Assembly: GCA_000002445.1 (NCBI GenBank)
Contig: CH464491.1
Span: 4,160,001-4,224,000 of the forward strand
Direction: 5' to 3'
DNA: 64,000 nucleotides
DNA from: Trypanosoma brucei
Lineage: Eukaryota
Numbering within the stretch: the first letter of the stretch is position 1; each line of letters starts with the position of its first letter. The notes beneath the pieces were generated by a model that searched no databases, had not been told where the DNA came from, and saw only the letters and a program-made list of their open reading frames with translations. This document shows, piece after piece, positions 1,300 to 64,000 of this stretch. Made by a program: the position numbers and the translations under genes.

Positions 1300-3240
1300 G
1301 TGCCGTTGAAGGTTGGTACACAAGGAAACCCATGTCACTTATGGCGTCGTAACTGTTTGCGCACTCAGCACTGAGTTTCCGGCGCCCTCACACGAACAAC
1401 TTCCACCTTGTTGGCGATAAGCGCCAAAATGTTTTCCGACACGACGGAGACTGTACCGAAGACGAGACCCACGACGCCAGCACATAAAAGAAAGTAGGTT
1501 CCAAAAAAGTGGAAGTTGCCCACATTCCGTCGAGTCCATTTGCCAGAATACATGTAGAATAGCGATGGGAATATGAAACTGAGGAACCCGCCACAAATAG
1601 CACCCACAATACCAAACACAGTGTTAATGTTAGGAATGAAGAGGCCAGCCAGCAACACAACGAGGGAAAGGGGAATCACGAAGGAAAAGTGCTTCCAATA
1701 AGGCAGCGTCTCTAATTCCCAGCCCAGAACATGATATATTGTGTTCCGCAACGCCATTGTTTGAAGGGCGTAAGCAACACAAAGTTTGACCACCATGCCA
1801 ATGAAACCTATCATCATCATCACCTCCGTGATGGGATTGTACATGAGAAGAATTGAGTTGTCGATAGCACCACCAAACTCACCATACGCAAACAAAATAG
1901 TGAGTGCGTACAGAATACCGCAAAACGCCATGGATATGGCAGCGTACACTGTGAACCTGGCACAGCTGCGCTTCTTCATCTCCCAGTAAACTTCATAGCA
2001 ATTGATCTGGCAAACATATGCAAACATAAAAACACCAACGGACGCAATAGCAGAGTTTCCAGTGTTGAACAACTTCACGCCATCTTCTTCATCACTCGTT
2101 AACTTCGGGAGTCCGCTTTGAGCTCCATGAATCACAATTGCGAAGACGAAGTACAGGACAAAAATAATTGCGAAACCGGAAACATAGCGGAGCGAGTTAA
2201 CCCTCTTCGGTAAAACGAGTGGCAACATGAAAACCATCCATGTGAGTGCAGTCAGGAGACGAATCCCACCCGGAGTCCTCAGGAACTCGGGAGCACCGCA
2301 CGATTTCTCTATGATGGGATTCAACACATGGCCGACGCTAATCACATAGGAAACCGTCGCACCGAACGAGTTGATCCATCGAATAACAACAACAAAATAC
2401 TCAAACCTTCGCCCCATAACCCCTCTTGCGGTGTGCTCAAACGTGCGAAGACCGGTCTTCTCCATCACAAGTGACAGGATATGCAGGGAAAAAACACCCA
2501 ACCCACCAATAACCACCAAATACAACATTGCCATCACAAGCCCACTGCGGTTTGCCGCGGCAGGAAGTCCAAGGATACCGGCACCAATGCACACTGAACA
2601 AAGGTTAAAAACACTTGACACTAATCCACCATATGGAACAACAGTACCTGCAATATGCTTCATCTTTGCACTAAATGATTGCCACACGGATGGCGGTGCA
2701 TCGCCACGAGCGTCAACCCTCTTGTTCTTATCATCCGTGTGAATAGGTTCACTCGCATCAACTATTCCTGAAGGTTCCGCAGGAAAAGTCTGTTGGGTTA
2801 CGGGTGAAGTGGTGTTCTCGACATCAGTGGCACACTTGCCTTTGTCAGACATACCTTAATGTGCGCGATGGCAACGTCAATAAATGGGTAACTTATTGGA
2901 TATCGCCTGTCTTATACCAATCGTTGTACAACTCACGAAAGAAAGCACCCTTGTGTTATTATGTTACTCGCACTTCTCGTTTCGCTAGTAAGTTACTACC
3001 TTCAAGTAGATTATTAGCCTTTACTGTCGGTGTGCAGGAGTAAACAGAAGAAACAACAAAGTGAAGACAATGAAGGGAAATGATAGATCAGTACGTGCTC
3101 AAACATAGACGAGATAAGTCGGTATATTGAAGGGAGAAATAGGAAAGATAATGAAACAAGATACCTACACTTTACGTAATAGAGACATATTTGGAAAAGG
3201 GTATTTTGCTTCCCACAGTTGATAGAAAAAATATATATAT
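1300..3240. repeat. Tandem duplication unit 1 (AAT gene plus conserved 5' and 3' flanks)
   Basis: 1308-1364 aligns to 3899-3954. 2853-3240 aligns almost base-for-base to 5440-5825, which explains the duplicated spurious +strand ORFs 2804..3043 and 5391..5630. Period about 2590 bp. Confidence 0.9.
1365..2852 (-). CDS. Amino acid transporter, AAT/Aa_trans family, 10-11 TM (tandem copy A)
   Basis: 495-aa ORF. Polytopic membrane protein with a hydrophilic N-terminus (MSDKGKCATDVENTT...). Near-identical paralogue 2.6 kb upstream. Architecture typical of trypanosomatid AAT genes. Confidence 0.85.
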   Translation of the reverse strand: MSDKGKCATDVENTTSPVTQQTFPAEPSGIVDASEPIHTDDKNKRVDARGDAPPSVWQSFSAKMKHIAGTVVPYGGLVSSVFNLCSVCIGAGILGLPAAANRSGLVMAMLYLVVIGGLGVFSLHILSLVMEKTGLRTFEHTARGVMGRRFEYFVVVIRWINSFGATVSYVISVGHVLNPIIEKSCGAPEFLRTPGGIRLLTALTWMVFMLPLVLPKRVNSLRYVSGFAIIFVLYFVFAIVIHGAQSGLPKLTSDEEDGVKLFNTGNSAIASVGVFMFAYVCQINCYEVYWEMKKRSCARFTVYAAISMAFCGILYALTILFAYGEFGGAIDNSILLMYNPITEVMMMIGFIGMVVKLCVAYALQTMALRNTIYHVLGWELETLPYWKHFSFVIPLSLVVLLAGLFIPNINTVFGIVGAICGGFLSFIFPSLFYMYSGKWTRRNVGNFHFFGTYFLLCAGVVGLVFGTVSVVSENILALIANKVEVVRVRAPETQC

Positions 3241-3889
3241 TTAAAAAAATCTACCAGAAACACAAACATTGTCACTAACCGCAGTGCGAAGAGCACACAA
3301 ACTATTTGTCAAGGGTTGAATGCGCACAACAAAAACAAAAAAGGGGTTGCACGCATAGAACGTCGAAAAGAAAAATAAAATAAAAGACAAATATTCACTT
3401 TTTAAAAACGCGGAGCGCAGGCTCCTTTTTACCGGTGAAACAAAAATATCTGAATTTTGCTGTGCATCAATCCATTCAAACGTGTGGTATTGCGCCATCG
3501 GTAAAAAAAAAAAATACAAACGAAACCGGACCGATTGGTAAAGCATGGTCAAGAGGGGGCATCGTGGTGGCAACTTGCATCAATAGTACAAAATAAAAAT
3601 AAAAATAATTTGACGTTTTCGTTTTGGCTCCACTAACCTATTGGAAACGAAACACAAATACAAAGAACCTTAAAATTCAATACACTGGTAGCAGTAGGTG
3701 TAACAAGGCCAGTGGTTACGTTTTTTTCTTTCTTTTGCATATATGTATAACTTTTCGTTTGGTTGTATTAGATAATATAAAATATTTAATAAGAAAGGAA
3801 GGTTAAGGTACCTTACGGCTGCGTAATTCACTTTACGGAGTTAACACGTCTTGTTTAAGGTTAAACAGGGAAGAGAAAAGAAATTTTAC

Positions 3890-5825
3890 CCAACGTCAAA
3901 GGTTGGTACACATAGAAATCGACGCCATAAGTGACGTCGCGACTGTTTGAGCACTCAGCAGACAGGCGGGGGCTTAATAACAGCAGCGCCACCACCACCG
4001 TGAATGAACGACATGATGGTGTTTGTTACAACAGTGACTGTGCCGAACACGAGACCCACTACACCAAGAATGAACAGTGCGTAGGTTCCAAAAAAGTGGA
4101 AGTTGCCCACATTCCGTCGAGTCCATTTGCCAGAATACATGTAGAATAGCGATGGGAATATAGCGCTCAGGAACCCGCCACAAATAGCACCCACAATACC
4201 AAACACAGTGTTAATGTTAGGAATGAAGAGGCCAGCCAGCAACACGGTGAGGGAAAGGGGAATCACGAAGGAAAAGTGCTTCCAATAAGGCAGCGTCTCT
4301 AATTCCCAGCCCAGAACATGATATATTGAATTGCGAATCGCCATTGTTTGAAGGGCGTAACTAATACATATCTTAACGACCACACCTATAGAGCCTATCA
4401 GCATCATGACCTCCGTGATGGGATTGTACATGAGAAGAATTGAGTTGGTCACAGTGCCGCCAAACTCACCATAGCCGAAAAAGGCAACAAAGCCGTAAAA
4501 AGTGCCGCAAAAAGCCATGGATATGGCAGCGTACAATGTGAACCTGGCACAGCTGCGCTTCTTCATCTCCCAGTAAACTTCATAAATATTGATCTGGCAA
4601 ACATATGCAAACATAAATACACCAACGGACGCAATAGCAGAGTTCCCACTGTTGAACAACTTCACGCCATCTTCTTCATCACTCGTTAACTTCGGGAGTC
4701 CGCTTTGAGCTCCATGAATCACAATTGTAAGTGCAAAATACAGGACAAAAATAATTGCGAAACCGGAAACATAGCGGAGCGAGTTAACCCTCTTCGGTAA
4801 AATGAGTGGTAACATGAAAACCATCCATGTGAGTGCAGTCAGGAGACGAATCCCACCCGGAGTCCTCAGGAACTCGGGAGCACCGCATGAGTTCTCTATG
4901 ATGGGTCTTAAAACATGACCGATAGTAATAATATAGGAGGTACTTGTACCGAACGAGTTCAGCAAACGAATTGCAATGACGAAGTATACAAATCGTCCAC
5001 CCATAACCCCTCTTGCGGTGTGCTCAAACGTGCGAAGACCGGTCTTCTCCATCACAAGTGACAGGATATGCAGGGAAAAAACTGTCATTAATGCCATGAT
5101 GATCAAATACAACATTGCCATCACAAGCCCACTGCGGTTTGCCGCGGCAGGAAGTCCAAGAAAACCGGCACCAATGCACACTGAACAAAGATTAAAAACA
5201 CTTGACGCTAATCCACCATATGGAACAACAGTACCTGCAATGTGCTTCATCTTTGCACTAAATGATTGCCACACGGATGGCGGTGCATCGCCACGAGCGT
5301 CAACCCTCTTGTTCTTATCATCCGCATAAACAGGTTCACTGACTTTGCTTACTCCTGAAGGTTCCGCAGGAAAAGTCTGTTGGGTTACGGGTGAAGTGGT
5401 GTTCTCGACATCAGTGGCACACTTGCCTTTGTCAGACATACCTTAATGTGCGCGATGGCAACGTCAATAAATGGGTAACTTATTGGATATCGCCTGTCTT
5501 ATACCAATCGTTGTACAACTCACGAAAGAAAGCACCCTTGTGTTATTATGTTACTCGCACTTCTCGTTTCGCTAGTAAGTTACTACCTTCAAGTAGATTA
5601 TTAGCCTTTACTGTCGGTGTGCAGGAGTAAACGGAAGAAACAACAAAGTGAAGACAATGAAGGGAAATGATAGATCAGTACGTGCTCAAACATAGACGAG
5701 ATAAGTCGGTATATTGAAGGGAGAAATAGGAAAGATAATGAAACAAGATACCTACACTTTACGTAATAGAGACATATTTGGAAAAGGGTATTTTGCTTCC
5801 CACAGTTGATAGAAAAAATATATAT
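3890..5825. repeat. Tandem duplication unit 2 (AAT gene plus flanks)
   Basis: Same alignment as unit 1. A unique spacer at 3241-3889 separates the two units. Confidence 0.9.
3955..5439 (-). CDS. Amino acid transporter, AAT/Aa_trans family (tandem copy B)
   Basis: 494-aa ORF. N-terminal 29 aa identical to copy A, with blocks of perfect identity interspersed with diverged blocks. 5' flank (5440-5825) about 99% identical to 2853-3240. Confidence 0.85.
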   Translation of the reverse strand: MSDKGKCATDVENTTSPVTQQTFPAEPSGVSKVSEPVYADDKNKRVDARGDAPPSVWQSFSAKMKHIAGTVVPYGGLASSVFNLCSVCIGAGFLGLPAAANRSGLVMAMLYLIIMALMTVFSLHILSLVMEKTGLRTFEHTARGVMGGRFVYFVIAIRLLNSFGTSTSYIITIGHVLRPIIENSCGAPEFLRTPGGIRLLTALTWMVFMLPLILPKRVNSLRYVSGFAIIFVLYFALTIVIHGAQSGLPKLTSDEEDGVKLFNSGNSAIASVGVFMFAYVCQINIYEVYWEMKKRSCARFTLYAAISMAFCGTFYGFVAFFGYGEFGGTVTNSILLMYNPITEVMMLIGSIGVVVKICISYALQTMAIRNSIYHVLGWELETLPYWKHFSFVIPLSLTVLLAGLFIPNINTVFGIVGAICGGFLSAIFPSLFYMYSGKWTRRNVGNFHFFGTYALFILGVVGLVFGTVTVVTNTIMSFIHGGGGAAVIKPPPVC

Positions 5826-7155
5826 GCGTTGTAAGAACGATATCAATGATCAGAAACTTTGTAAATTTATAACGAAAATCCTATTTTCCCGAAGAAAAAA
5901 GAATTCCCCCCTTTTTACTATGGAGCGCCCTTCTTTCACAGACGGACTTACCACCTCCATGGAGCACAAGCTGGGCTTATGGCTGAAGGACCAGGCGGGT
6001 GAGCAGACAAACAAACTCCGCGGTTGAAGGGTACGACGGACCCATCACTGAAGTCAAACACGCACCGTAGTGGAAAATAAAATAACGACGCCTTTGTTGT
6101 ACTCACTCCACCGTTTTGCTGTTGAGGGTTTCGAATGTATTGGAAACCTCCATTGGTATGGGTAAAGTTAACCAACACGCCAGAGGGCTGTGCATTCATG
6201 CATCCGCCGAAGCATTAAATCACGTCTTCCTTGCAGTCCCACCCAAACAATACTGGTGGTTCTTTTTTCCCCCGAATGCTTCAACTTGGGAAACGGTGCG
6301 ACTACGACCCGGGTAGTTGATTAAAAGCATTTCTTCCTTACCATCTTTCCTGGCGCTGAAAGGGACGGTGATGGGCTTTTAACATGGCCACTCATGCCAA
6401 ACCACACGCTGCCTTTGCTATCCCACCTTCTATCACGCACTTCATCAACGTTACGGGTAGCTAATATGTGAAATGTGAAGAAGGAGATCAGCAGCGGTCC
6501 TTTAAAAAAACGGGTAAAACACAGTCACAGCATAAGATGAAAATAATAATATCAATAACAATGATAATAACAATGGCGCTGACCTTCACAGAGGATGCCA
6601 ATACGCATAGCAGCCGTGTGCAAGCAAGGGTGGAAAGGGAATGGAAGGGAAAAAAAACCGTACAAAAAGGTTTCAGAAGGCAAAGGAGTCGAGCGGCGAA
6701 CGGTTGCGTTAACAACGTGCAGCGGGCGCCGATGCACAAATGTGGATTGGGAAGTCAAACAGAAAAAAACACAAAAACGCTTCCGTCGCGGTGACGTTCG
6801 AACACTGCTGTCTGCTCCTCCCTTCCACATATTTGTAGCATTCTTTCGGATTGCTCCTCTTGCATATTCTTCGTCGTGCACAGCTTTTCTTAACAATTTA
6901 GCCTCCACACATAGTAGTGCACAGCGGTGTTTCCCTCAATACTAATAACAGATGTTGCAACGAGAGTTTTAAGAAAAACAAGGCGCCACAACAGACAGGG
7001 AACAGTGCAAGAATACCTTATCATATCTTGCCGCATGAACACTCAAACACTTATGTCGACAAGCAACTGAAGGTTGAGGGTGATACCCCAAGTTGATTGT
7101 GCCTCTCCGGTAACCACAAAGCTAACCTACACAAATATCTGCCATTTATCAACCA

Positions 7156-10100
7156 TCACACAAGATTCATGAGCGGCAGGGCAAATGTCGCCCTTGTGGG
7201 AGGTGGGAGGTGACGAGTACCTCCCCTCAGCATGTAGTACTGAATTCTTTTTTCTACAGCCACATGCATTCCGGTGAGATTCACCGCAAAGGCAGCAACC
7301 AGGTCATCCAGCATGCTATACGTGTCGTGAAGCAGCCGAAGTATCGGCTGAACCTCAAGGACACGTAGACCTTTGTATATAGTAGCCGCGATTTGTGGGT
7401 ATAAGCTCAGCAGCATGGGTCGTACATGCTGGGCGTAATGTGGAATAGCATAGGGCTGCACACCACCGCGGTCGCCACAGAGTACGCGGTGCTCACGCTC
7501 GAGGCGCTGCAGGCACTGAAGTGCCAACTCAGCATACCGTTGGTGATAAGGCTCACGAGATTTAAATGTCTCCAACTCCTCCGTGTAGGGTAACATAGAT
7601 GCATCAAGCAGGGATGAATCGCTGTGTCCACTTGATCCAACAAAGTTTTCCAGTGAGGCGTCTCGCGTACCACTCCCCGAATGAGACAGTCCCGCTGCGT
7701 CCACAGTTTGACCCACAGCATCTGCGGGCGCTAGCTGCTCAGAAGATAAAACATGCTGTTGCCTCTGCTGATTGTATATATCAAGCATACGGGCGAGTCC
7801 AGGTGAAGAAAACTCCATTTCAGCCTGTCGGGGTGTCCGTTGGAACCTATCCAGCTCCCACTTACTTCTAGCCACACGCGTGTACATCTCACACATAACA
7901 TCCTCGGGAAACGGTACTGCGACACATTCGTTGCCATTCCTAACAAAATCCTTCATCGTCATCCGGGAAGATCTCACGTTCGCATTGTGAAGGCTTGTAT
8001 GAAGAAACAGAAGCACTCCAGCCATAGCGTTAGCATCATCAGGCGAAATACTGCGGGGGTTTTGTGCCGCGTATACTTCACCAAAGCGCTGTTGGATTAC
8101 TACCCACACTTGCGCCTCGAAAGTGGGACGATCCCAAGACATAAACTCGCACGTAGTGTCCCTCAGCGCAATGTCGATAGGCACATTTCTATATGAAAAA
8201 TGTTGCAAGTATTCCCTTAGAATGCGGTCGCAGTCCTTGTCCTTTAGCACGCGCTCGAATATTCCACATAAAGCTCCCCGCTCAACACCCTCGTACGTTT
8301 TGAGAAACAGTGCAAAGGCACTCCAGCCTTCTTCACCCTCTGCCGGAATATAATCTCGCTCCTTCAAGAAGCTCATCGCCTGCCGCCACTGACCCTTGTT
8401 GATTAGGCCTACAGCTAGCTGTGCTGTGCGCTTGCTATGCAGCAGGTAATGTATGTGCTTCCAGTGGTAACCAACACTCCAGCGTCTTTCAACTCCCTGC
8501 TGTTCGAAGAGGGATTCATCAGTCACTATGGGGGAAACGGGCATATTGTTGCCTGTCACCCTTTCCGAGACCCGATGTCCATCCTTCACGTCCCTCTCCG
8601 AGTAGTTGCGGTACACATCATACCAACGGTTATCTGATACCGTGTCACCGGGAAGCCTGGAAAGCACCTGTCCCACAACCTCACGTGTTTGCTGGTGGGA
8701 ATAGTCATCAGGATCTTCCGCGATCCAGCGCTGCAACGAGTGAACTAAATTGTGTATGGCACTCGCACAACCACTGCGCAGGAGTTGTTGTTGGTCGTCA
8801 GAAAGCCAGTCCGGTTCAATAAGATGCGTGAAGGTCATCTCGGCCACGAAATTTACCATGAGCTCCAGCATCCCACCGTACTTACCACCGGCGTCAAATG
8901 TTGGATTACAGTCATAGTTGATGAAAAGCGAAACACACAGATGAGGAACACTGAGAAGCTCCCGCACCATGTCCACAACTGCGTGTTTTTGAGAAAAACT
9001 TGAGTAACGCGACAAAGCTAACGGAAACAGCATTACAGCAAGAACTGTGTGCAGCTCTCGAGCAAGGTGATAATGACATTTTTGGAGTAGCAATGAGATT
9101 ATACGCACCGCAGAGGCGAAGAAAGAAGCTGGGGCCACTGCGGTCAGATTCCGTGCAAGACACCTTGTAAGGTCGTACTTTGTTGCCGTAATCACTAGAG
9201 ACAACCATGTCGCGCAGTGGTGCTCTGCACAACAGTTTGCCATTGGGAGAGCCTGAAATACCGCCTCAAGCATATCAAGTGCAAGCTGCCGCGCTCGTGC
9301 TTCGGGACCTCCCTCACCAGTTGAACCTGATCCGCTTACTGTGCGAGCCCCAAGACTACAGGTATGCTTTATCAGTAACAGTAAATCCTTCATTGCGTCA
9401 GGGAACCGGCCCATTTTCATAGAAGATAAGGCGCTTCCAATTATCTGCCCATTCAAAGTGCTTCGAAAGTAGTCAAAGGAGGAAAACGTGGTCTCAGCGA
9501 ATAACTCACACTCTGAATTATGGCTCAGTGACTGCGCTGCCCTTTCGTCCCCTGTCGTTTCACCCAATGAAGCTTCGACAAAGGGATCCGTGTTGTTCTC
9601 CACACTGATGGGGAGGTGCTTCGAATCGGGCTCCACATCATGAACGTAGTCGTCCAACGGCGTTAGAGACGTAAAGGTGCATGAACGAGAATCTGTAGGT
9701 GCAGATTCCAGGAAAGTTCGAGTCACGCGAAGAACACATAACGGTAGCAGGTCGCGGCTAATCCCCCGAGCCCCTTCACTCGCGCCCAACAGGGCGACGC
9801 GACAACACGTTTGGATGCACCGGGTAACACACTTACCGGTGAACGAAGGGAAACTGTCATCACTCACGAGATCATGCAAAATCTCTACGCTGGTCAGCTG
9901 TAATCCCGCGTCTGTGATGCGTGCAAGCACATCCCCCAACGCCTCGAACATCGCGGCCCCGCACGAAAGTACGCTGCTGCTACCATTGGCCCGATATAGC
10001 ACGATGGATGTCGTATACTGAATGCAATTATTGTGGATCATCCGTTGTAATAGTGGGAGTGCAGCCTCCGTTACGCGCGTCTTCTTGATATAGAGGGCAC

Positions 10101-48195: not shown

Positions 48196-48359
48196 ACCTC
48201 CGATACGTATCTCGCCACATCGCCAGCGGAAAGTATCATGGTGCCTTAGCGATACCACCGCTGTACTGATGCTGCTTGGGTCACCAAAAATCTCACACCA
48301 CACTTTGGCCACCATTGTGGAAACTACCGCACAGAAAGGGGCTGGTTGGTGGGTGTTGA
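48196..48359. repeat. 164-bp intergenic direct repeat, copy 1
   Basis: About 98% identical (3 mismatches) to 48590-48753. Generates the shared spurious ORF N-terminus MVAKVWCEIFGDPSS... Confidence 0.9.
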
Positions 48360-48589
48360 GCCAAATGAAAATGTCAGGAAACCGATAGAGCATTTCTCAT
48401 TCATGCACACAATGAGACACAAATTAAACAAATCTTGGTCAGCTTTTGAACCACATTGCACTTACAATGGTACAAGTACTGGGCCTTCGAACTGACCTTA
48501 AGGAACCATCAGGGTCACCGCCGGGAACTTTGTAGGCGAAAGGAACACGAAATAGAGGGGAAAAAACGCAAGGAAGACGAAAACAGCAA

Positions 48590-48753
48590 CCTCCGATACG
48601 TATCTCGCCACATCGCCAGCGGAAAGTATCATGGTGCCTTAGCGATACCACCGCTGTACTGATGCTGCTTGGGTCGCCAAAAATCTCACACCACACTTTG
48701 GCCACCATTGTGCAAGCTACCGCACAGAAAGGGGCTGGTTGGTGGGTGTTGAG
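48590..48753. repeat. 164-bp intergenic direct repeat, copy 2
   Basis: See copy 1. Start-to-start spacing 394 bp. Confidence 0.9.
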
Positions 48754-55848: not shown

Positions 55849-58136
55849 AATTCAACAACCAACTGAGAGGCGGAAGAGTAAGAAAAAAAAGGTCCTGTAT
55901 AACATGAAAATTGTGGATAGCAACGGGCAAATGATGACTCATACCCTCAACACCAAGAAGGGAGAGATGTGCCGAAACACTTGATGTTTTCAAAGTCCTC
56001 CTCAATATTCGGATGGATTCATTACGCTGCACAGAAGTCACACCCCACCATCATCCTGTCCCGTATCTCCATTCGGTGTGCAATATCTTCCCTTCCACAA
56101 AGATAGATAACAAATGAAAAACTTGTTGAACCAACCATAATTGTCAAAGCGGAAAGAGAAACCAGCTCAGGGAAGGTGAAAAGGGGAAATAGTAAAAAAA
56201 AAAGGTAGCGATCATTCACAAGCTGCTAAAATAGTAAAATAAACAACCTCACGCATATACACAAGACTCCTACTACATGGTCAGGATCCTAGAAATTTAA
56301 ATATATTCCAGGCCTGGAATATAAATATCAGTTTTGTCGTGAGGTGGATATGTTAAATCACCTAGCAACAACGTACCACCGACGAAACACCGTCCCCCCC
56401 CCCCTTTAGGGATTCTACTGAAGACAGAAACATAGGGAAAGTACACACATAAGCACACACACCGAGCATCCAATCCTTCAGTTTAATTAAAAAAGAACGA
56501 ACGCACTTCCTTCTCCCCCCCCCCGCCCCCGATCACAGGGTTCTAGCGGTAAGTCCCTTTGCCACCACCACCACCACAAGGTGCTCTCATGAGCAAAAAA
56601 AAACGTGTCCCTCGTTGAAGTAGTGCCCAAGACCACGAACATTAAGGAATGAAATCACCCATTGTCATATATTACCTTTAATAGGAACGAACGGTTTTTC
56701 TTTTTCTTTTTTTCGCCACAACGCACTAATCAACAAGCAACACACATAAAGAGGGGAATCAAAAATAGTAGGAGTTTAGTGAGAGGTCAGCGAGCCTCAT
56801 TAACACATTCACTTCAAGACAATATTTTATATGCCACAACACCGACAACAACGCCGCATCTCGTTTCCGTGTAAAAACGAAACGCGATGTCGGGTTTGTG
56901 TAACCCTACCCCCCCCCCCCCACACACACACACACGCACGTAGAAAAGGGGGTGGATGACATACTGAGAATAACCTGGCACGTATATACGTATATAGGCC
57001 AGCGGCATAAATTTGTTCGCGCTCTTCAAACACGGACGCACATCTGTCTTCAAGTGGCACCAAGGATATTATCGAATACCATGGAAACGAAAGTAAGCGA
57101 GAGAACCCGGTACCATCGGTTACTTACTGAACGCGGGTTTTCAAACCGCATAGCGCACTCTGAAAAGTGGCGAAAGTGCTCTATGCTATGTAGGAACCTT
57201 CATCCCACCTCCTCATGCTTACGCTGTTGGATAGTTATCAAAGCGAGAAATAATAACAATAATACGGAACCTTTCATTTACCAACAACAACCGCCGATCT
57301 GTCGACTTATTTGGTGATTCCGCGGACAGAACAAAAAGAAAGGGGGATATCACAAAAAGCAAACTGCAGCGGTGTTGAGTAAACATGCACAATGATATTA
57401 AGACACGGGGTCACAGTATTCACATGAACTGTCTCAAAGAAGCGGTCAACATCCCTTGGTATTACCTTGATCACTCAAAACCAACCAACCGCCTAGAGGG
57501 TACAAGGGGGGAGCAACATTCAATTCGGTGCCTCGTTGAAGAAACACAACCATATTCGGCAAACGAAGTGCCATCGGAAACACCCCGTGCTACAGCTGAT
57601 AAACACATTTTGGGCCGCTTCTGTAGGCAAATTACCAAAGCGTCTCAGACGCTAAGGCAACGTATATTTCGAGCGTAAAATTTAAAAGATTGGTCGGGAG
57701 AACAAATAAAATGGACCAAACTTACCTGCAGATGACAGCGCTCATACGCTTCATGCAGATGTTATTGCCCTGATCACCGCAGAGCATATGCAGTACATAA
57801 ACAATAAGTGAAATCAGATACAATCCTGAAGTACCAGTGACACTAAGCATTTAGGTATGAAAGTATACATTTGCAAATAGAACTTTCCACTTATTGGTTA
57901 CTTCTTCCAGAGTGTTAGCTCTCTGAACTACGGTAAAGTTCAACACCGCCCTTGCCTTTGCAACAATGAACATAGAAGAAAGCAGAGCGGAGTACCCAAC
58001 ACACGAAAAATGGTGAGACACATGTGTTAAAAAGATGTAGAGCGCAAAAAAACTTAAGTAAATTAATCTGAGAACACATGCCTCACTTCAATTAAAAAGG
58101 CAACACCACCGCTAAGGTTTCGTACTACCGATTGTA

Positions 58137-59605: not shown

Positions 59606-60286
59606 CTACAAATGGGTATTGTAACTAGGATCTGTCGTTGCACACGAGGCTATAATATCAGCGTCCGTTTTCTCTCTAACATTGCGAAGAAACGAATACG
59701 ACGGGCAGCCCGTCGAATTGACAGGTGAAAAGAAACATACACGCATCTGCTTGACCACCAGTAACGTGCGGCGGAACGACACACCACCGCTGACTGAATC
59801 GGTTATATCGCTGACAATACTTTGAATGATGTATTTGAAGGAGTGAACATACGCATCCCTTAACTGAAGCACAACGTCAGTTACCCATGGGACGAAATAC
59901 GATCCATCCCTTGAGCGCGCATATAGTCGGATTTGCCACCTTATAGCGCTACAGAGCATTGCTCGGTCAGCAGCGGCTAATATTGCAAACGCACCATCCG
60001 TGTCATTTTTAAGATTATATACAATGGAAGAATAAAGCATTCTGGTCTCGGTATGATTAAGATTTCTCCCCGAGCCATATAAACCGCTCAATCCTTCCTG
60101 TGAGTAGTTCTCAGGGAGAACCAAAGATAAAGGTTCAGGCGTCAAAAGTTTCTCCCAACCTAAACCGAAAAGAATTACAACAATACACATGCGATACAGG
60201 CGCCGCATCGTAAATTGCTTAAATAACGAAAAGATAGTAGAAAAAACAATAGTACAAGCGACAAGACAAAAAACAAACCAAGCCAC
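59606..60286 (-). CDS. Hypothetical small membrane/secretory-pathway protein. Probably first gene of the transcription unit.
   Basis: 226-aa ORF with two N-terminal hydrophobic segments. Co-directional. No homology recognised. Confidence 0.45.
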   Translation of the reverse strand: MAWFVFCLVACTIVFSTIFSLFKQFTMRRLYRMCIVVILFGLGWEKLLTPEPLSLVLPENYSQEGLSGLYGSGRNLNHTETRMLYSSIVYNLKNDTDGAFAILAAADRAMLCSAIRWQIRLYARSRDGSYFVPWVTDVVLQLRDAYVHSFKYIIQSIVSDITDSVSGGVSFRRTLLVVKQMRVCFFSPVNSTGCPSYSFLRNVREKTDADIIASCATTDPSYNTHL

Positions 60287-60289
60287 TTT

Positions 60290-61065
60290 TGGATGTCAAA
60301 ATACCCCACCACCCACTGTTACCAACTCCCAACGAACGTGGCCACCTTCAAACACCACATACGGCACAAGCCTCATCACTTACGAGACAACAACAAGCGA
60401 TAAAAGACGTCCATCAACAGTGACGCATCAAACAATTATTATACGCCGTCACTGCAACAAAAACATAGAGACGAAAAATCCGGTAATTCCCACTTCCGAG
60501 AAGCATCCATGGTGGAGAGACAACCGTTGATATAATAAAAACAAGACCAATGCCAAAAAGGCAGTGACAAAAACTACAACTCACAACAGCATGCGCGTCT
60601 CCTCACCACCATCACCTTTCGCACAAAGAGTAAAAAGATAAAGGAGCATAGGACCACAATGCTAAACAACACACACACTAAAAAAAAAACGACAAGCAGT
60701 ATACAACAAACATTCCAAATCGCCAATCATTACACAATCACCTAAATGAAAACAATAAAACAAACAGTAAAAAGGGAGTAAACCACTACACGAAGAGACC
60801 AGTAACCCTTCCAACTGCAGCAACATACGCAGCCAACGGAAAAAATGAGCAAATAAAAAACATCGACACAAACGAACATTCAAATACATCACACCAACAA
60901 AAACAAAAGATAGGTGAAAAGCGCCAGCACAAGCCAACTACAAATACACCCTGACACGGAAAACCACAAAAAAATTAATAAAAAACTAGATACGATACGA
61001 AACAAACTCTACAACAATGCACCTCGCCCCTATACAAAAGATAAGCGACACATGCTTTCTTTTTT
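60290..61065 (-). promoter_or_regulatory. GT-rich (on minus/coding strand) tract upstream of first gene. Candidate Pol II transcription start region.
   Basis: About 780 bp of almost pure A+C on the plus strand, so G+T on the minus strand, immediately 5' of the most upstream minus-strand gene. Confidence 0.5.
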
Positions 61066-61068
61066 TTT

Positions 61069-61148
61069 GGGGGGGGGGAGGGGCCTCGAAATGCACATAA
61101 ACATTTCCTCCTCTATGAGGACTAAATGATGAGTCCCTCCCCCCCCCC
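61069..61148. other. G14/C14 inverted repeat (potential 14-bp all-GC hairpin with about 52-nt loop, or G-quadruplex / i-motif former)
   Basis: GGGGGGGGGGAGGG at 61069-61082 is the reverse complement of CCCTCCCCCCCCCC at 61135-61148. Confidence 0.85.
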
Positions 61149-62890
61149 TCCAATCAAATGAAAAAGGAAGTAGTGCATACACAAAGTGATGAATCGTAGA
61201 TACAAAGGAAAAAAAAAGCAAACAAATCACTGTGGACAGATGTATTTGTAAGGCCAGAAACATCCTCCAGTGCAAATATTGTTTCCTTCGGTACGCTGAG
61301 TAAAAGAGTAGATGGGTAGCGAAATGCCAGAAGATTATCATACAACTATTGTTCAGGGAGGGTGTGTCACTGTAGATGGTACCGTGAAAGTTACCGGAAA
61401 GAAATAAAGGACGGATCCGTGTGTAAGACAAAAGTAGCCATATTTTACAAACTACATGTCATTCTTTGTAGCCCTTTAAAACAAGCTCCACTCGAATTCA
61501 AGGTGGGAACCGCCTGCCACACATGGAAGTTGACTGACTATGAAACTAGTCAGCAGAGGCATACGCATTCGTATTAATTCATTCCGCTTTTCCCCACTGC
61601 GCGGCGGACCGGAATGAAAACGAGGGCGGCATCATTGCTGCTGGAGAGTGGGAAAAGACTGCCCCATAATATTCCCGGCTCGAATCGTGAACATTACTAT
61701 GAAGGTTACCGTGAGGCAAAATCGCAGCACCCCGAGAAGGTACAACTCACCACGGTGGTGGAGGGAATCGTCCCTGTGCGGTTTTTATGCAATCATTTCC
61801 AGTAACTTTAGCCGCTTTCACGGAGAAGCACACCGGAGGGTGGAGCCGAGAATGTGGATGATACAGCCGTTAGAATCAACAGCGGAAGTCGGTAAAGGGT
61901 GGACCAAACCTAGTAACACCTCCTGAAGGATTCACGACACTTCCACCTCACTAATCAAAGGAAGAGAGGACTCGTGATCCAGCGGTACGTTGCGAGTGCA
62001 ATTTGCTTCACTCTCGATTCGACTCGAAAGTAAAGCATACGGCGGGGAAAACATTGGCAGGCTGAAAAGAAACGGGTAGGTGGGAAATAAAATATGGCTC
62101 CGAAGCCACTTGTGCACACAGACGCCCTTATTGCCACGGCGCCCTCATGATCATTCTTACACATTTGTATAGTTTTGAGGGAGTCCGTAAACACAGAAAA
62201 GGGAACGATGATTCCGGACGGCACGGATAGCAGGAAGTAAAAGGGAAAGAAGCAATGGGGCCACATCAGCAAATACGTGCTAAGGCACTCATAGCGACCG
62301 AAACCAAACCGGTTACAAACTTGCTTTAGGTGCCAAGTTGTATCCAAGCGTGTTGATAATTGAAAGGGATTTGCGCAGCAAAATGGAATAGGAAAAGGGA
62401 CTCTCACTGAGCAAACAATGATGCCAATAGTAAGAGCATGAGCGCAAATAAGTAACGGATTCGGAGAGTCGTGCAATACATGGCAACGCTGGCTCGTGTA
62501 ACGCCTCTCATTTCTTCTTCAACAGGGAGTGAGCAGAGATGGAATGAATCCAAGGAGGGGGAGCGCCATCATGAAAGTGCGTTACTGAAAGTTGTTCACG
62601 AGAGCTTTGCTAAATTTAACCAACCGGCTGGCCGATAGAGAGGGCGTCACTTCCCACAACATCGCTTGTGTGGGTTGCGTACGGCACCTGAAGATGGAGA
62701 GATACGGGATACTTCTTCCGATATAACTGAAACATCATGTGATTGCCGCATGCCATTTACTCCGGAGCAGAAGGTAAAGGGATGTGGGGTGGCACCATGG
62801 CCCAAGGTAGTGTTGGCCGAAAGCGTCTTAAGTGTAGCCAAGTATTTCTGAGGCAGGTGGGCCCCACCTGGCGTATTTGCAAACAGGGGA

Positions 62891-62892
<2 letters not shown>

Positions 62893-62924
<32 letters not shown>
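62893..62924. repeat. (AT)16 microsatellite
   Basis: Perfect dinucleotide run, followed by C10 and (CAAA)n at 62937-62975. Confidence 0.95.
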
Positions 62925-62927
<3 letters not shown>

Positions 62928-63339
62928 GGAGTGACGCCCCCCCCCCAAAAAAAAAAACAAACAAACAAACAAACATATAGAAGAGAGAGCCTTTGGAAGA
63001 AGGGAAAAAATTGCCGAGCATATCAGCAGTCAACCCCTAAAAACAAATTGGAAGCGCCATCACATCAATAGTGTAGTGGGGAGTTGAAAACAACAATCGA
63101 ATGCAATTGGGCAAGTGACAACTACGAACAAAAACTGCAAGTGGAAGACGGCTGCACTGCCCTAGACAACACTTATCAGGAAGCGCCCAACCATGTATGC
63201 GACATATGCGAATTTTGGGCATCATGTAGGGAATGTGACAAAAAGACCAATTTCTCCCGCACTTAACACACCTTTGGCCCCCACAAGTACTCCGCAATGG
63301 CTGAGGTTATCTCTACTGCGGAAATACAGGGACGTCGGG

Positions 63340-63700
63340 CCATGGGTGCAACAGATGCTTAAGGTAGGGTAAGTGGTGATGGGGGAGCGTTTGATTTTAT
63401 TTATTTTTAATAATTCGATACGTTCGTGCATATAGGGATTAAGAGGTGGAAGGAAAAGTGTGTGTGTGCGATTTTTTTTTTTTTGAGATGACGGAGCAAA
63501 AAATGTTTGTCCGTACATGTGTGCTAAGCAATATAAAAGGGTGGGGGTTAATATCAAGTGGCAGTGACAGTTGTTATCGACGTTTGATCAGCAGGAGGGT
63601 TCTTCCAGATTTTCCTACATTGTTGGAGGCAATATATTTTTTTGTGTTTTTGTGGTGGTTTATAGCAGATATGTGCTGTTATGCTTAGAGGAGAATATCG
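63340..63700 (+). promoter_or_regulatory. GT-rich tract on plus strand. Candidate divergent Pol II start region for a plus-strand unit beyond the window.
   Basis: Plus-strand G+T-rich (ggtagggtaagtggtgatggggg..., gtgtgtgtgtgcgattttttttttt..., ttgtgtttttgtggtggttt). Mirror image of the minus-strand GT tract at 60.3-61.1 kb. Confidence 0.4.
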
Positions 63701-64000
63701 TGATCCAGGCCAGTACTGACGGAGAAAAAAAGCTCCATGATTTTTTCCTATCCGGTGGGCAGTGGCCTTCTGTCAGTCACTGCTGGCCGTTGTCATCTGC
63801 GGCAATTTGGCGTTTACCCTTTGCGGTTATTTTGTCAAAAAAAAATCAATTGAACTGAAACAGGCACCGCATAATCTTTAAAAAAACGTGTTCCTTGTGT
63901 GCTGCTTGCCTGCTATTCACGATGTAAGGAAACATAACGATACAGCTGAATATACTTAAATTTTCTATAAAACATACAAGTGCCCCCCCCTGACGAGATG

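What the first reader, a model, noticed from the sequence alone, without database searches (positions are those of the whole stretch)
60290..63700. Mirrored GT-skew blocks bracketing a gene-free 3.4 kb: candidate divergent strand-switch / Pol II initiation region
All 23 genes are on the minus strand and coding stops at 60286. Immediately upstream, 60290-61065 is almost pure A+C on the plus strand, i.e. G+T-rich on the coding strand. A second block (63340-63700) is G+T-rich on the plus strand, in mirror orientation. In African trypanosomes GT-rich elements have been reported to drive Pol II initiation and H2A.Z deposition at divergent strand-switch regions. The sequence shows exactly that strand-asymmetric signature, with (AT)16, C10 and a G14/C14 palindrome between the blocks. 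This places the start of a long transcription unit inside the window.
Basis: partly seen in the sequence, partly recalled or inferred. Interest (0 to 1): 0.55.

Follow-up and report, generated by a model that had tools for sequence, protein, structure and literature searches.

The report
Transcription-unit boundary carrying a known inverted repeat
The gene-free stretch is a previously mapped restart point for RNA polymerase II on Trypanosoma brucei chromosome 11, and about half of it is one arm of a published small-RNA-producing inverted repeat (IR7), so the sequence signals are real but the locus is not a classical divergent strand-switch region and is largely already known.

Summary
Block 60290-61065 is 71.8% A+C and block 63340-63700 is 64.8% G+T. 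Each is the single most extreme window of its size in the 64 kb. (AT)16, C10 and the G/C hairpin are all present.

The window maps to T. b. brucei TREU927 chr 11 (Tb927_11_01_v4) 4,160,001-4,224,000.

Published 5'-triphosphate RNA-seq (Kolev 2010, Table S14) does start a minus-strand Pol II unit here, at Tb11.01.7840. It labels that start 'Internal', not 'Divergent'.

The next ORFs (Tb11.01.7860 LRRP and Tb11.01.7870) are on the plus strand, but gave no detectable transcript. Beyond them CAP17, CARP1 and further genes are again on the minus strand.

Window 61039-62957 is one arm of the ~1.9 kb long inverted repeat Tb927_11_IR7 (Tschudi 2012), a source of DCL2-dependent siRNAs. The second GT block lies in the 3.8 kb spacer between the arms.

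That spacer is inverted in the T. b. gambiense assembly. It also carries an ingi retroelement at 63307-63317 in two other assemblies.

In Leishmania infantum the orthologous first gene sits at a true divergent strand-switch region. In T. cruzi the array is continuous.

The locus is essentially already known. The possibly new points are the spacer flip and the concerted evolution of the two arms.

The parts
59606..60208 (-). First CDS next to the gene-free region: a 200-aa conserved hypothetical protein (EAN80562 / Q381G9; inferred IDs Tb11.01.7850 = Tb927.11.16170). The ATG is at 60208.
   Evidence: ORF. The exact protein is found in TREU927, DAL972, OVI and GCA_003543875.1. Orthologues in T. 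cruzi, T. vivax and L. infantum were found by tblastn. No Pfam domain.
60209..61038 (-). Unique upstream region of the first gene. It is 72.5% G+T on the coding (minus) strand. It is the candidate GT-rich, promoter-proximal / 5' leader segment of the unit.
   Evidence: Unique compositional maximum of the window. Eleven Wedel EV1 10-mers hit the minus strand and none the plus strand. Function is inferred, not shown.
61039..62957 (.). Proximal arm of the long inverted repeat Tb927_11_IR7 (~1.9 kb). Composition is balanced (GT .48). No coding or known RNA family signal.
   Evidence: A second, inverted copy lies next to CAP17 in DAL972, CM010682 and OVI at 99.3-99.6% identity. Tschudi 2012 Table 3 gives IR7 at 4219000/4231000 with a repeat length of 1,814 bp. 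The offset of 4,160,000 comes. The stretch 61079-62892, between G10 and (AT)16, is 1,814 bp. Pfam and Rfam were negative.
61060..61078 (+). T9G10 at the outer end of the arm. This is the only plus-strand G run of 9 or more in the 64 kb. It is the reverse complement of the C10A9-11 at the inner end of the arm.
   Evidence: pair I7: 19 nt, 100% complementary. It matches the top TSR 10-mers TTTTTTTGGG and GGGGGGGGGG.
61069..61148 (.). G10AG3 / C3TC10 hairpin with a 52-nt loop.
   Evidence: pair I17. DNA fold -24.7 kcal/mol, z = -4.28. Rfam gives only sub-threshold miRNA-like matches.
62893..62924 (.). (AT)16 microsatellite near the inner end of the arm. Its length varies between strains: (AT)6 in DAL972 and CM010682, and an assembly gap in OVI.
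62937..62975 (-). Inner end of the arm and the arm/spacer junction. On the coding strand it reads (GTTT)n T11 G10. This is the densest cluster of TSR-type 10-mers in the region. It is also the breakpoint of the spacer inversion seen in DAL972.
62958..64000 (+). Start of the 3.8 kb spacer between the two IR7 arms. It continues beyond the window into the LRRP gene Tb11.01.7860, whose ATG is at window-equivalent 64158.
   Evidence: Collinear with L002 and L007. Kolev Table S2 coordinates. The spacer's G+T skew follows the LRRP orientation.
63307..63317 (+). Empty target site (TTATCTCTACT) of a 5.2 kb ingi retrotransposon that is present in CM010682 and DAL972.
   Evidence: an 11-bp target-site duplication, element 5' end CCCTGGCGATG..., 3' end A12, with RVT_1, RNase_H and Exo_endo_phos ORFs.
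63340..63700 (+). GT-rich block 2 (64.8% G+T on the plus strand), with (GT)5 and T13. It is the upstream flank of the LRRP gene.
   Evidence: Unique maximum of plus-strand G+T in the window. T13 at 63472-63484.

Best explanation
The 3.4 kb gene-free stretch is the proximal half of a composite boundary between two minus-strand Pol II transcription units on T. b. brucei TREU927 chromosome 11.

Shown or published:
- The upstream unit (Tb11.01.8780 -> CAP17) runs into the distal arm of the long inverted repeat IR7.
- A spacer of ~3.8 kb follows. It carries the LRRP ORF on the opposite strand.
- The proximal arm is window 61039-62957.
- An 830-bp unique segment, strongly GT-rich on the coding strand, then leads into the first gene of the next unit.
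- Kolev 2010 lists a Pol II start here and classifies it as 'Internal'.

Inferred:
- Initiation uses coding-strand T(n)G(n) and GT-rich sequence: (GTTT)n T11 G10 at 62937-62975, G10AG3 at 61135-61148 (minus strand), and block 60209-61038.
- Both arms are transcribed in the same direction. This could be read-through on one RNA, or two separate RNAs. Either way the complementary arm transcripts would form the dsRNA that nuclear DCL2 dices into the published IR7 siRNAs.
- The second GT block is the upstream flank of LRRP. Its mirrored orientation follows from the orientation of the IR-flanked spacer, which recombination between the arms can flip.
For: Locus identity:
- Trypanosomatid snoRNAs TB11Cs5H1-3 are in the window.
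- The Tb11.01.7860 coordinates (4224158) equal the predicted LRRP ATG at window-equivalent 64158.
- Four Kolev novel transcripts all fall in ORF-free gaps of the window.

Unit start: Kolev Table S14 lists Tb11.01.7840 -> 7040 (minus strand) as 'Internal' and Tb11.01.8780 -> 7880 (minus strand) as a separate unit.

Inverted repeat:
- A second inverted copy lies next to CAP17 in three assemblies.
- Tschudi Table 3 gives IR7 at 4.219-4.231 Mb, 1,814 bp, 9,296 AGO1-bound reads, falling to 2% in dcl2-/-.
- Inverted repeats are H3.V-enriched siRNA loci.
- The minus-strand transcript Tb11.NT.204 spans the distal arm.

Composition.

GT-rich and G-run signature of TSR 5' ends.

Conservation of the boundary: a divergent SSR with mirrored G/C runs in L. 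infantum, and a gene-free region of more than 9 kb in T. vivax.

Spacer orientation and arm homogenisation.
Against: - No TSS, H2A.Z or Pol II track could be read at base resolution, so the exact initiation site within about 60.2-63.3 kb is unknown.
- Kolev names Tb11.01.7840, not 7850, as the first ORF. Initiation could therefore lie nearer the first gene than assumed, or the 200-aa gene may have been left out for another reason.
- The Wedel 10-mers and coding-strand G runs are not specific to this region. Similar densities occur in ordinary intergenic regions inside the unit.
- In T. cruzi the orthologous genes are co-directional with only 1.7 kb between CARP1 and the first gene.
- The TREU927 distal arm itself was not seen here. 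It rests on Tschudi's table and on other strains.
Confidence: 0.72

Rival explanations
1. Classical divergent strand-switch region. Two long polycistronic units diverge from a shared bidirectional initiation zone, and each GT-rich block is the promoter of one unit.
For: The next annotated ORFs, Tb11.01.7860 and 7870, are on the plus strand. The GT blocks are mirrored. Plus-strand T9G10 lies at 61060-61078. The orthologous site in L. infantum is a true dSSR. Pol II initiation sites in T. brucei are reported to be intrinsically bidirectional.
Against: The plus-strand stretch is only ~3.8 kb. Both of its ORFs are in Kolev's list of ORFs without a detectable transcript. CAP17, CARP1, a 187-aa gene, Suf/HAT and RINGv genes beyond it are all on the minus strand. 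Kolev labels the start 'Internal'. In DAL972 the LRRP gene is co-directional with the array.
Confidence: 0.1
2. No dedicated initiation here. The minus-strand array is transcribed continuously from the far upstream dSSR through the IR7 cassette. Block 1 is then just an unusually skewed 5' flank or UTR, and block 2 is the flank of an inverted passenger gene.
For: IR7 siRNAs imply that both arms are transcribed. Tb11.NT.204 shows minus-strand transcription through the distal arm into the spacer. In T. cruzi the array is continuous and co-directional. The GT 10-mers and G runs are common in ordinary intergenic regions.
Against: Kolev 2010 assigns a separate unit starting here, based on 5'-PPP reads that coincide with the histone marks. 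Block 1 is a ~4.6 sd outlier relative to all other intergenic regions. The same gene heads a unit in L. infantum. Inverted repeats are H3.V-enriched, which is a termination mark.
Confidence: 0.13
3. The mirror arrangement is a by-product of a spacer inversion. The ancestral state was co-directional, as in DAL972. Block 2 is the ordinary GT-rich upstream flank of LRRP. Arm-to-arm recombination flipped the spacer in the TREU927 lineage and so created an apparent dSSR/cSSR pair. This concerns the origin of block 2 and is compatible with initiation at block 1.
For: The spacer orientation differs between DAL972 and TREU927, CM010682 and OVI. The spacer's G+T skew follows the LRRP orientation along most of its length. 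The arms evolve in concert, which implies ongoing arm-to-arm recombination. T. cruzi is co-directional.
Against: Three of four assemblies show the divergent orientation. The arms (1.9 kb) are longer than Sanger reads, so the DAL972 orientation could be an assembly choice. There is an N gap inside the DAL972 ingi. No outgroup carries the cassette, so the polarity of the change cannot be determined.
Confidence: 0.35

Closest known systems
Non-divergent ('internal') Pol II transcription start regions of T. brucei (Siegel 2009; Kolev 2010; Wedel 2017)
   Same: Head-to-tail boundary between two same-strand units. Listed as an 'Internal' start in Kolev Table S14. GT-rich sequence and G10 runs on the coding strand, as in TSR 'region 1'.
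   Different: The boundary contains a 7.6 kb inverted-repeat cassette and two opposite-strand ORFs. No tRNA or snRNA gene is nearby.
Tb927_11_IR7, one of seven siRNA-producing long inverted repeats (Tschudi et al. 2012)
   Same: Chromosome, coordinates, arm length and near-identity of the arms all match. Window 61039-62957 is one arm.
   Different: The paper treats IR7 only as a small-RNA source. It does not link it to the unit boundary, to the GT-skew blocks, to a spacer inversion or to the ingi polymorphism.
Divergent strand-switch regions of Leishmania and T. brucei with mirrored G/T skew and poly-G tracts
   Same: Mirrored strand asymmetry, and G runs on each coding strand. The L. infantum orthologue of the first gene sits at such a dSSR.
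   Different: In T. brucei one 'unit' is a two-ORF spacer with no detectable mRNA in procyclic cells. The flanking genes on both sides share one strand.
Inverted-repeat-flanked invertible segments (e.g. plastid IR flip-flop, the yeast 2-micron plasmid, the human Xq28 FLNA-EMD inversion). Cited from general knowledge.
   Same: A unique spacer between long, near-identical inverted arms. Both spacer orientations are observed. The arms evolve in concert.
   Different: No site-specific recombinase is implied. Flipping within a clone has not been shown. One orientation could be an assembly artefact.
ingi/RIME retroposon insertions at unit boundaries
   Same: A full-length ingi with an 11-bp target-site duplication sits at 63307-63317 in two assemblies. 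ingi 3'-end 10-mers appear in Wedel's TSR-enriched list.
   Different: The window (TREU927) has the empty site, so the retroelement is not part of the feature here.

Membership tests
T. brucei divergent strand-switch region (dSSR) start region | Two polycistronic units pointing away from each other | tested here: not met
   The nearest ORFs are formally divergent: the 200-aa gene on the minus strand and Tb11.01.7860 on the plus strand. However, the plus-strand side is two untranscribed ORFs in a 3.8 kb spacer, and CAP17, CARP1 and the genes beyond are again on the minus strand. Kolev labels the start 'Internal'.
T. brucei Pol II transcription start region (any type) | Enrichment of 5'-triphosphate RNA ends / a mapped unit start | tested here: met
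   Taken from the literature, not recomputed. Kolev 2010 Table S14 starts the unit Tb11.01.7840 -> 7040 here. Base-level positions are not available.
T. brucei Pol II transcription start region (any type) | H2A.Z/H2B.V nucleosomes and H4K10ac/H3K4me3 enrichment | not testable with these tools
   No ChIP tracks are accessible. Kolev states that all listed sites coincide with the Siegel 2009 marks. Siegel 2009 is not held.
T. brucei Pol II transcription start region (any type) | GT-rich sequence and G runs on the coding strand at the 5' end (Wedel 2017) | tested here: met
   Block 1 is 72% G+T on the coding strand and is the window maximum. T11G10 and (GTTT)n lie at 62937-62975 and G10 at 61139-61148 on the minus strand. 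Specificity is weak, because similar 10-mer densities occur inside the unit.
siRNA-producing long inverted repeat (Tschudi 2012) | Two long, near-identical arms in inverted orientation on one chromosome | tested here: met
   Arms of ~1.9 kb at 99.3-99.5% identity within DAL972 and within CM010682. OVI also has the distal arm. The TREU927 distal arm lies outside the window and is known from Tschudi's table.
siRNA-producing long inverted repeat (Tschudi 2012) | Identity with the published locus IR7 (chr 11, 4,219,000-4,231,000; 1,814 bp) | tested here: met
   Window offset of 4,160,000. The cassette is predicted at about 4,221,039-4,228,620. The stretch 61079-62892 is 1,814 bp.
siRNA-producing long inverted repeat (Tschudi 2012) | AGO1-bound 22-25 nt RNAs that depend on Dicer | not testable with these tools
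   Published values: 9,296 reads in wild type, 52% of that in dcl1-/-, 2% in dcl2-/-.
IR-flanked invertible segment | Both spacer orientations exist | tested here: inconclusive
   DAL972 is inverted relative to TREU927, CM010682 and OVI. The arm length exceeds Sanger read length, so an assembly artefact is not excluded.

The most novel reading that the evidence does not exclude
The IR7 cassette could be a recombinational flip switch at a transcription-unit boundary. In one orientation the spacer gene LRRP (Tb927.11.16180) is co-directional with the array and expressed. In the other it is antisense and is silenced through convergent transcription and DCL2 siRNAs. Flipping, or loss of the spacer, would then explain its all-or-none behaviour: no transcript in procyclic YTat1.1, and the most decreased mRNA (log2FC -8.6) in an acoziborole-resistant Lister 427 line.
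Probability: 0.1. Interest if true: 0.6.

Novelty: already known. Interest (0 to 1): 0.3.

Why it matters
The start of this unit, the GT-rich promoter concept and the inverted repeat IR7 are each published, so the finding adds no new kind of element.

What this analysis adds is that they are one locus. A head-to-tail termination and re-initiation boundary is built around a concertedly evolving inverted repeat. Its spacer differs in orientation and in retroelement content between Trypanozoon genomes.

If the flip is real, it is a compact natural case for asking how promoter direction, convergent transcription and RNAi interact in an organism thought to lack gene-specific transcriptional control.

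Tried and rejected
- tRNA scan of the window: none found.
- Rfam at gathering thresholds: only the TB11Cs5 snoRNA cluster at 48.2-48.75 kb.
- Rfam at permissive E-values on 60200-64000: only far-sub-threshold miRNA-like matches on the G/C hairpin, read as shape coincidence.
- Pfam on seven ORFs of the region: no hits. The 173-aa and other ORFs in the arm are treated as spurious.
- Wedel's TSR 10-mers as a discriminator: rejected. They mark the coding strand of ordinary intergenic regions across the whole unit (213 minus-strand against 32 plus-strand hits), and block 1 is not richer than other bins.
- A retroelement remnant as the explanation of 61.2-62.9 kb: rejected. The ingi lies elsewhere, at 63307-63317, and only in other strains.
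- Look-up of the TREU927 distal arm: not possible.
- Siegel 2009 is not held.
- No TSR coordinate lists in the supplements of PMC8559703 or PMC12227686.
- The gambiense genome paper's main text does not mention this chr 11 inversion.
Full report
**Observation.** The two compositional blocks are real.
- 60290-61065 is 71.8% A+C on the plus strand. It holds the maximum of all 776-nt windows in the 64 kb (mean .549, sd .037). It exceeds each of the 22 other intergenic regions (.49-.61).
- 63340-63700 is 64.8% G+T on the plus strand, likewise the unique maximum (mean .452, sd .047).
- (AT)16 lies at 62893-62924 and C10 at 62937-62946.
- G10AG3 (61069-61082) pairs with C3TC10 (61135-61148). The DNA hairpin folds at -24.7 kcal/mol, z = -4.28.
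- Large ORFs are all on the minus strand.
- The last CDS most likely begins at ATG 60208 rather than 60286.

**Where the window is.** Rfam finds the trypanosomatid snoRNAs TB11Cs5H1-3 at 48.2-48.75 kb. The 200-aa and phosducin-like proteins are identical to those of T. b. brucei TREU927, T. b. gambiense DAL972, T. equiperdum OVI and assembly GCA_003543875.1.

Kolev et al. 2010 (PMC2936537) place Tb11.01.7860 at Tb927_11_01_v4 4224158-4224826 on the plus strand. I had predicted the LRRP start codon at window-equivalent 64158 from the collinear locus L002. The offset is therefore exactly 4,160,000.

Kolev's novel transcripts Tb11.NT.200-203 all fall in ORF-free gaps of the window, and NT.201 covers the snoRNA cluster. 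This confirms the mapping.

**Surroundings.** Loci fetched around CAP17 show the wider gene order. The genes beyond the gene-free stretch (CAP17, CARP1, a 187-aa protein, a Suf/HAT protein and a RINGv protein) are on the same strand as the window's genes.

Between them lies a cassette with these parts:
- A distal arm next to CAP17.
- A ~3.8 kb spacer carrying the 222-aa LRRP ORF.
- A proximal arm, window 61039-62957.

The arms are inverted copies, 99.3-99.5% identical within a genome. Each arm ends in T9G10 on the outside and C10A11 on the inside, which are themselves reverse complements.

Tschudi et al. 2012 (PMC3447711) list Tb927_11_IR7 at 4219000/4231000. They give a repeat length of 1,814 bp, 3 mismatches and 9,296 AGO1-bound small-RNA reads, dropping to 2% in dcl2-/- cells. 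The position fits, and the stretch between G10 and (AT)16 (61079-62892) is exactly 1,814 bp. Half of the 'gene-free 3.4 kb' is therefore one arm of a published siRNA locus.

**Transcription.** Kolev's Table S14 is built from 5'-triphosphate RNA-seq that coincides with the histone marks. It lists two minus-strand units:
- Tb11.01.8780 -> 7880, labelled 'Divergent'.
- Tb11.01.7840 -> 7040, labelled 'Internal'.

Table S2 lists Tb11.01.7860 and 7870, the only plus-strand ORFs, among ORFs with no detectable transcript. The minus-strand transcript Tb11.NT.204 (4228989 -> 4226009) spans the whole distal arm and 0.7 kb of spacer. Inverted repeats are reported to be H3.V-enriched, and their siRNAs rise when H3.V is lost.

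**GT-rich promoter signature.** Wedel et al. 2017 (PMC5579346) showed that TSR 5' ends carry GT-rich 10-mers on the coding strand. GGGGGGGGGG is by far the most frequent (132 against 17), and synthetic GT-rich elements drive directional transcription and H2A.Z deposition.
- On the minus strand the window has (GTTT)n T11 G10 at 62937-62975 and G10 at 61139-61148.
- On the plus strand it has T9G10 at 61060-61078.
- The list as a whole is not discriminating. It hits the minus strand 213 times against 32 over the whole window, and block 1 is no richer than several ordinary intergenic bins.
- Coding-strand G runs of 9 or more occur at six other places inside the unit.

Overall G+T content, not motif density, is what makes block 1 exceptional.

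**Variation between genomes.**
- CM010682 is collinear with the window. It carries a 5.2 kb ingi at 63307-63317 with an 11-bp target-site duplication.
- DAL972 has the same ingi, but the whole spacer is inverted, so LRRP is co-directional with the array.
- OVI has the TREU927 orientation and no ingi.
- About 25 substitutions separate the TREU927/OVI arms from the CM010682/DAL972 arms. Yet the two arms within CM010682, or within DAL972, differ at only ~4-5 sites. This is concerted evolution, and so implies arm-to-arm recombination.
- The arms are longer than Sanger reads, so the DAL972 orientation could still be an assembly choice.
- The gambiense genome paper's main text does not mention this inversion.
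- The spacer's G+T skew follows the LRRP orientation. Block 2's mirror orientation may therefore simply reflect the orientation of the spacer.

**Comparison with other trypanosomatids.**
- In T. cruzi, RINGv, Suf, CARP1, the 199-aa orthologue, phosducin, TBCA, MCM and NDK are all co-directional. Only 1.7 kb separates CARP1 from the first gene, and there is no CAP17, LRRP or repeat.
- In L. infantum the 198-aa orthologue is the first gene of a unit at a true divergent SSR. Three G runs lie on its coding strand, three C runs lie further upstream, and G+T flips from .35-.43 to .60-.69.
- In T. vivax more than 9 kb upstream lacks long ORFs.

A unit boundary just upstream of this gene therefore appears old. 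The IR7/LRRP cassette was not found in T. vivax, T. cruzi or L. infantum; T. congolense could not be examined.

**Mechanism (inference).**
1. The upstream unit enters the distal arm and largely terminates within the cassette.
2. Pol II re-initiates on the minus strand somewhere between the inner end of the proximal arm and the first gene, using coding-strand G-run and GT-rich sequence.
3. Because both arms are transcribed in the same direction, their transcripts are complementary and give the DCL2-dependent siRNAs.
4. Block 2 is the LRRP flank and may support weak antisense or divergent initiation.

**Verdict.** The exact start site and the chromatin marks could not be checked here. The element is already known in its parts. 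The spacer inversion, the concerted evolution of the arms and the link between IR7 and the unit boundary are modest additions.

Noticed in passing
beyond the window: window-equivalent 64158-64826 (Tb11.01.7860 = inferred Tb927.11.16180): The LRRP gene in the IR7 spacer behaves all-or-none. Kolev 2010 detected no transcript in procyclic cells. Tb927.11.16180 is the most decreased mRNA (log2FC -8.62) in an acoziborole-resistant Lister 427 line (PMC8648117). The ID mapping is inferred from two anchors: CAP17 = 16200 and CARP1 = 16210.
   Followed up: partly
window 63307-63317; L002 1670-6929; L009 13938-19194: Polymorphic full-length ingi insertion with target-site duplication TTATCTCTACT. It is present in CM010682 and DAL972 and absent in TREU927 and OVI.
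   Followed up: yes
Wedel 2017 Dataset EV1 compared with L002 (ingi 3' end): Several 'TSR region 1' 10-mers (GGTGATGGCT, GTGATGGCTG, GGCTGATGGC, GGGGGGAAAC, CGAAGAAAAT, GAAGAAAATT) are contiguous in the ingi/RIME 3' end seen here. Part of that published list therefore probably reflects retroposons sitting at the 5' ends of start regions.
   Followed up: partly
window 55849-58134: A 2.3 kb ORF-poor gap between MCM and TBCA, with three C runs (C11 at 56394, C10 at 56515, C13 at 56909) and (CA)7. It corresponds to Kolev's novel transcript Tb11.NT.203 (4217955-4215991, minus strand). T. cruzi has a 492-aa gene at the equivalent place.
   Followed up: no
window 48210-48751: Duplicated H/ACA snoRNA cluster: TB11Cs5H1 x2, H2 x2 and H3 x1. 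It lies inside Kolev's precursor transcript Tb11.NT.201.
   Followed up: no
L007 5509-5685 compared with L003 1-173 (T. equiperdum OVI): Two OVI contigs share the outer 173 bp of the arm and then diverge, one to CAP17 and one to the 200-aa gene. This is the assembly-graph signature of the two arms. It shows how short-read assemblies break at this locus.
   Followed up: yes
arm alignment columns 581-951, i.e. roughly window 61620-61990: The DAL972 distal arm carries a patch of 5 differences from its own proximal arm. Three of them match the TREU927/OVI haplogroup, which suggests a gene-conversion tract or a collapsed heterozygous allele.
   Followed up: no
L015 (L. infantum CP029531.1) 1872-9117: A 7.2 kb gene-free divergent SSR upstream of the orthologous gene, with three G runs and three C runs arranged in mirror fashion. 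It is a clean comparator for the T. brucei locus.
   Followed up: partly
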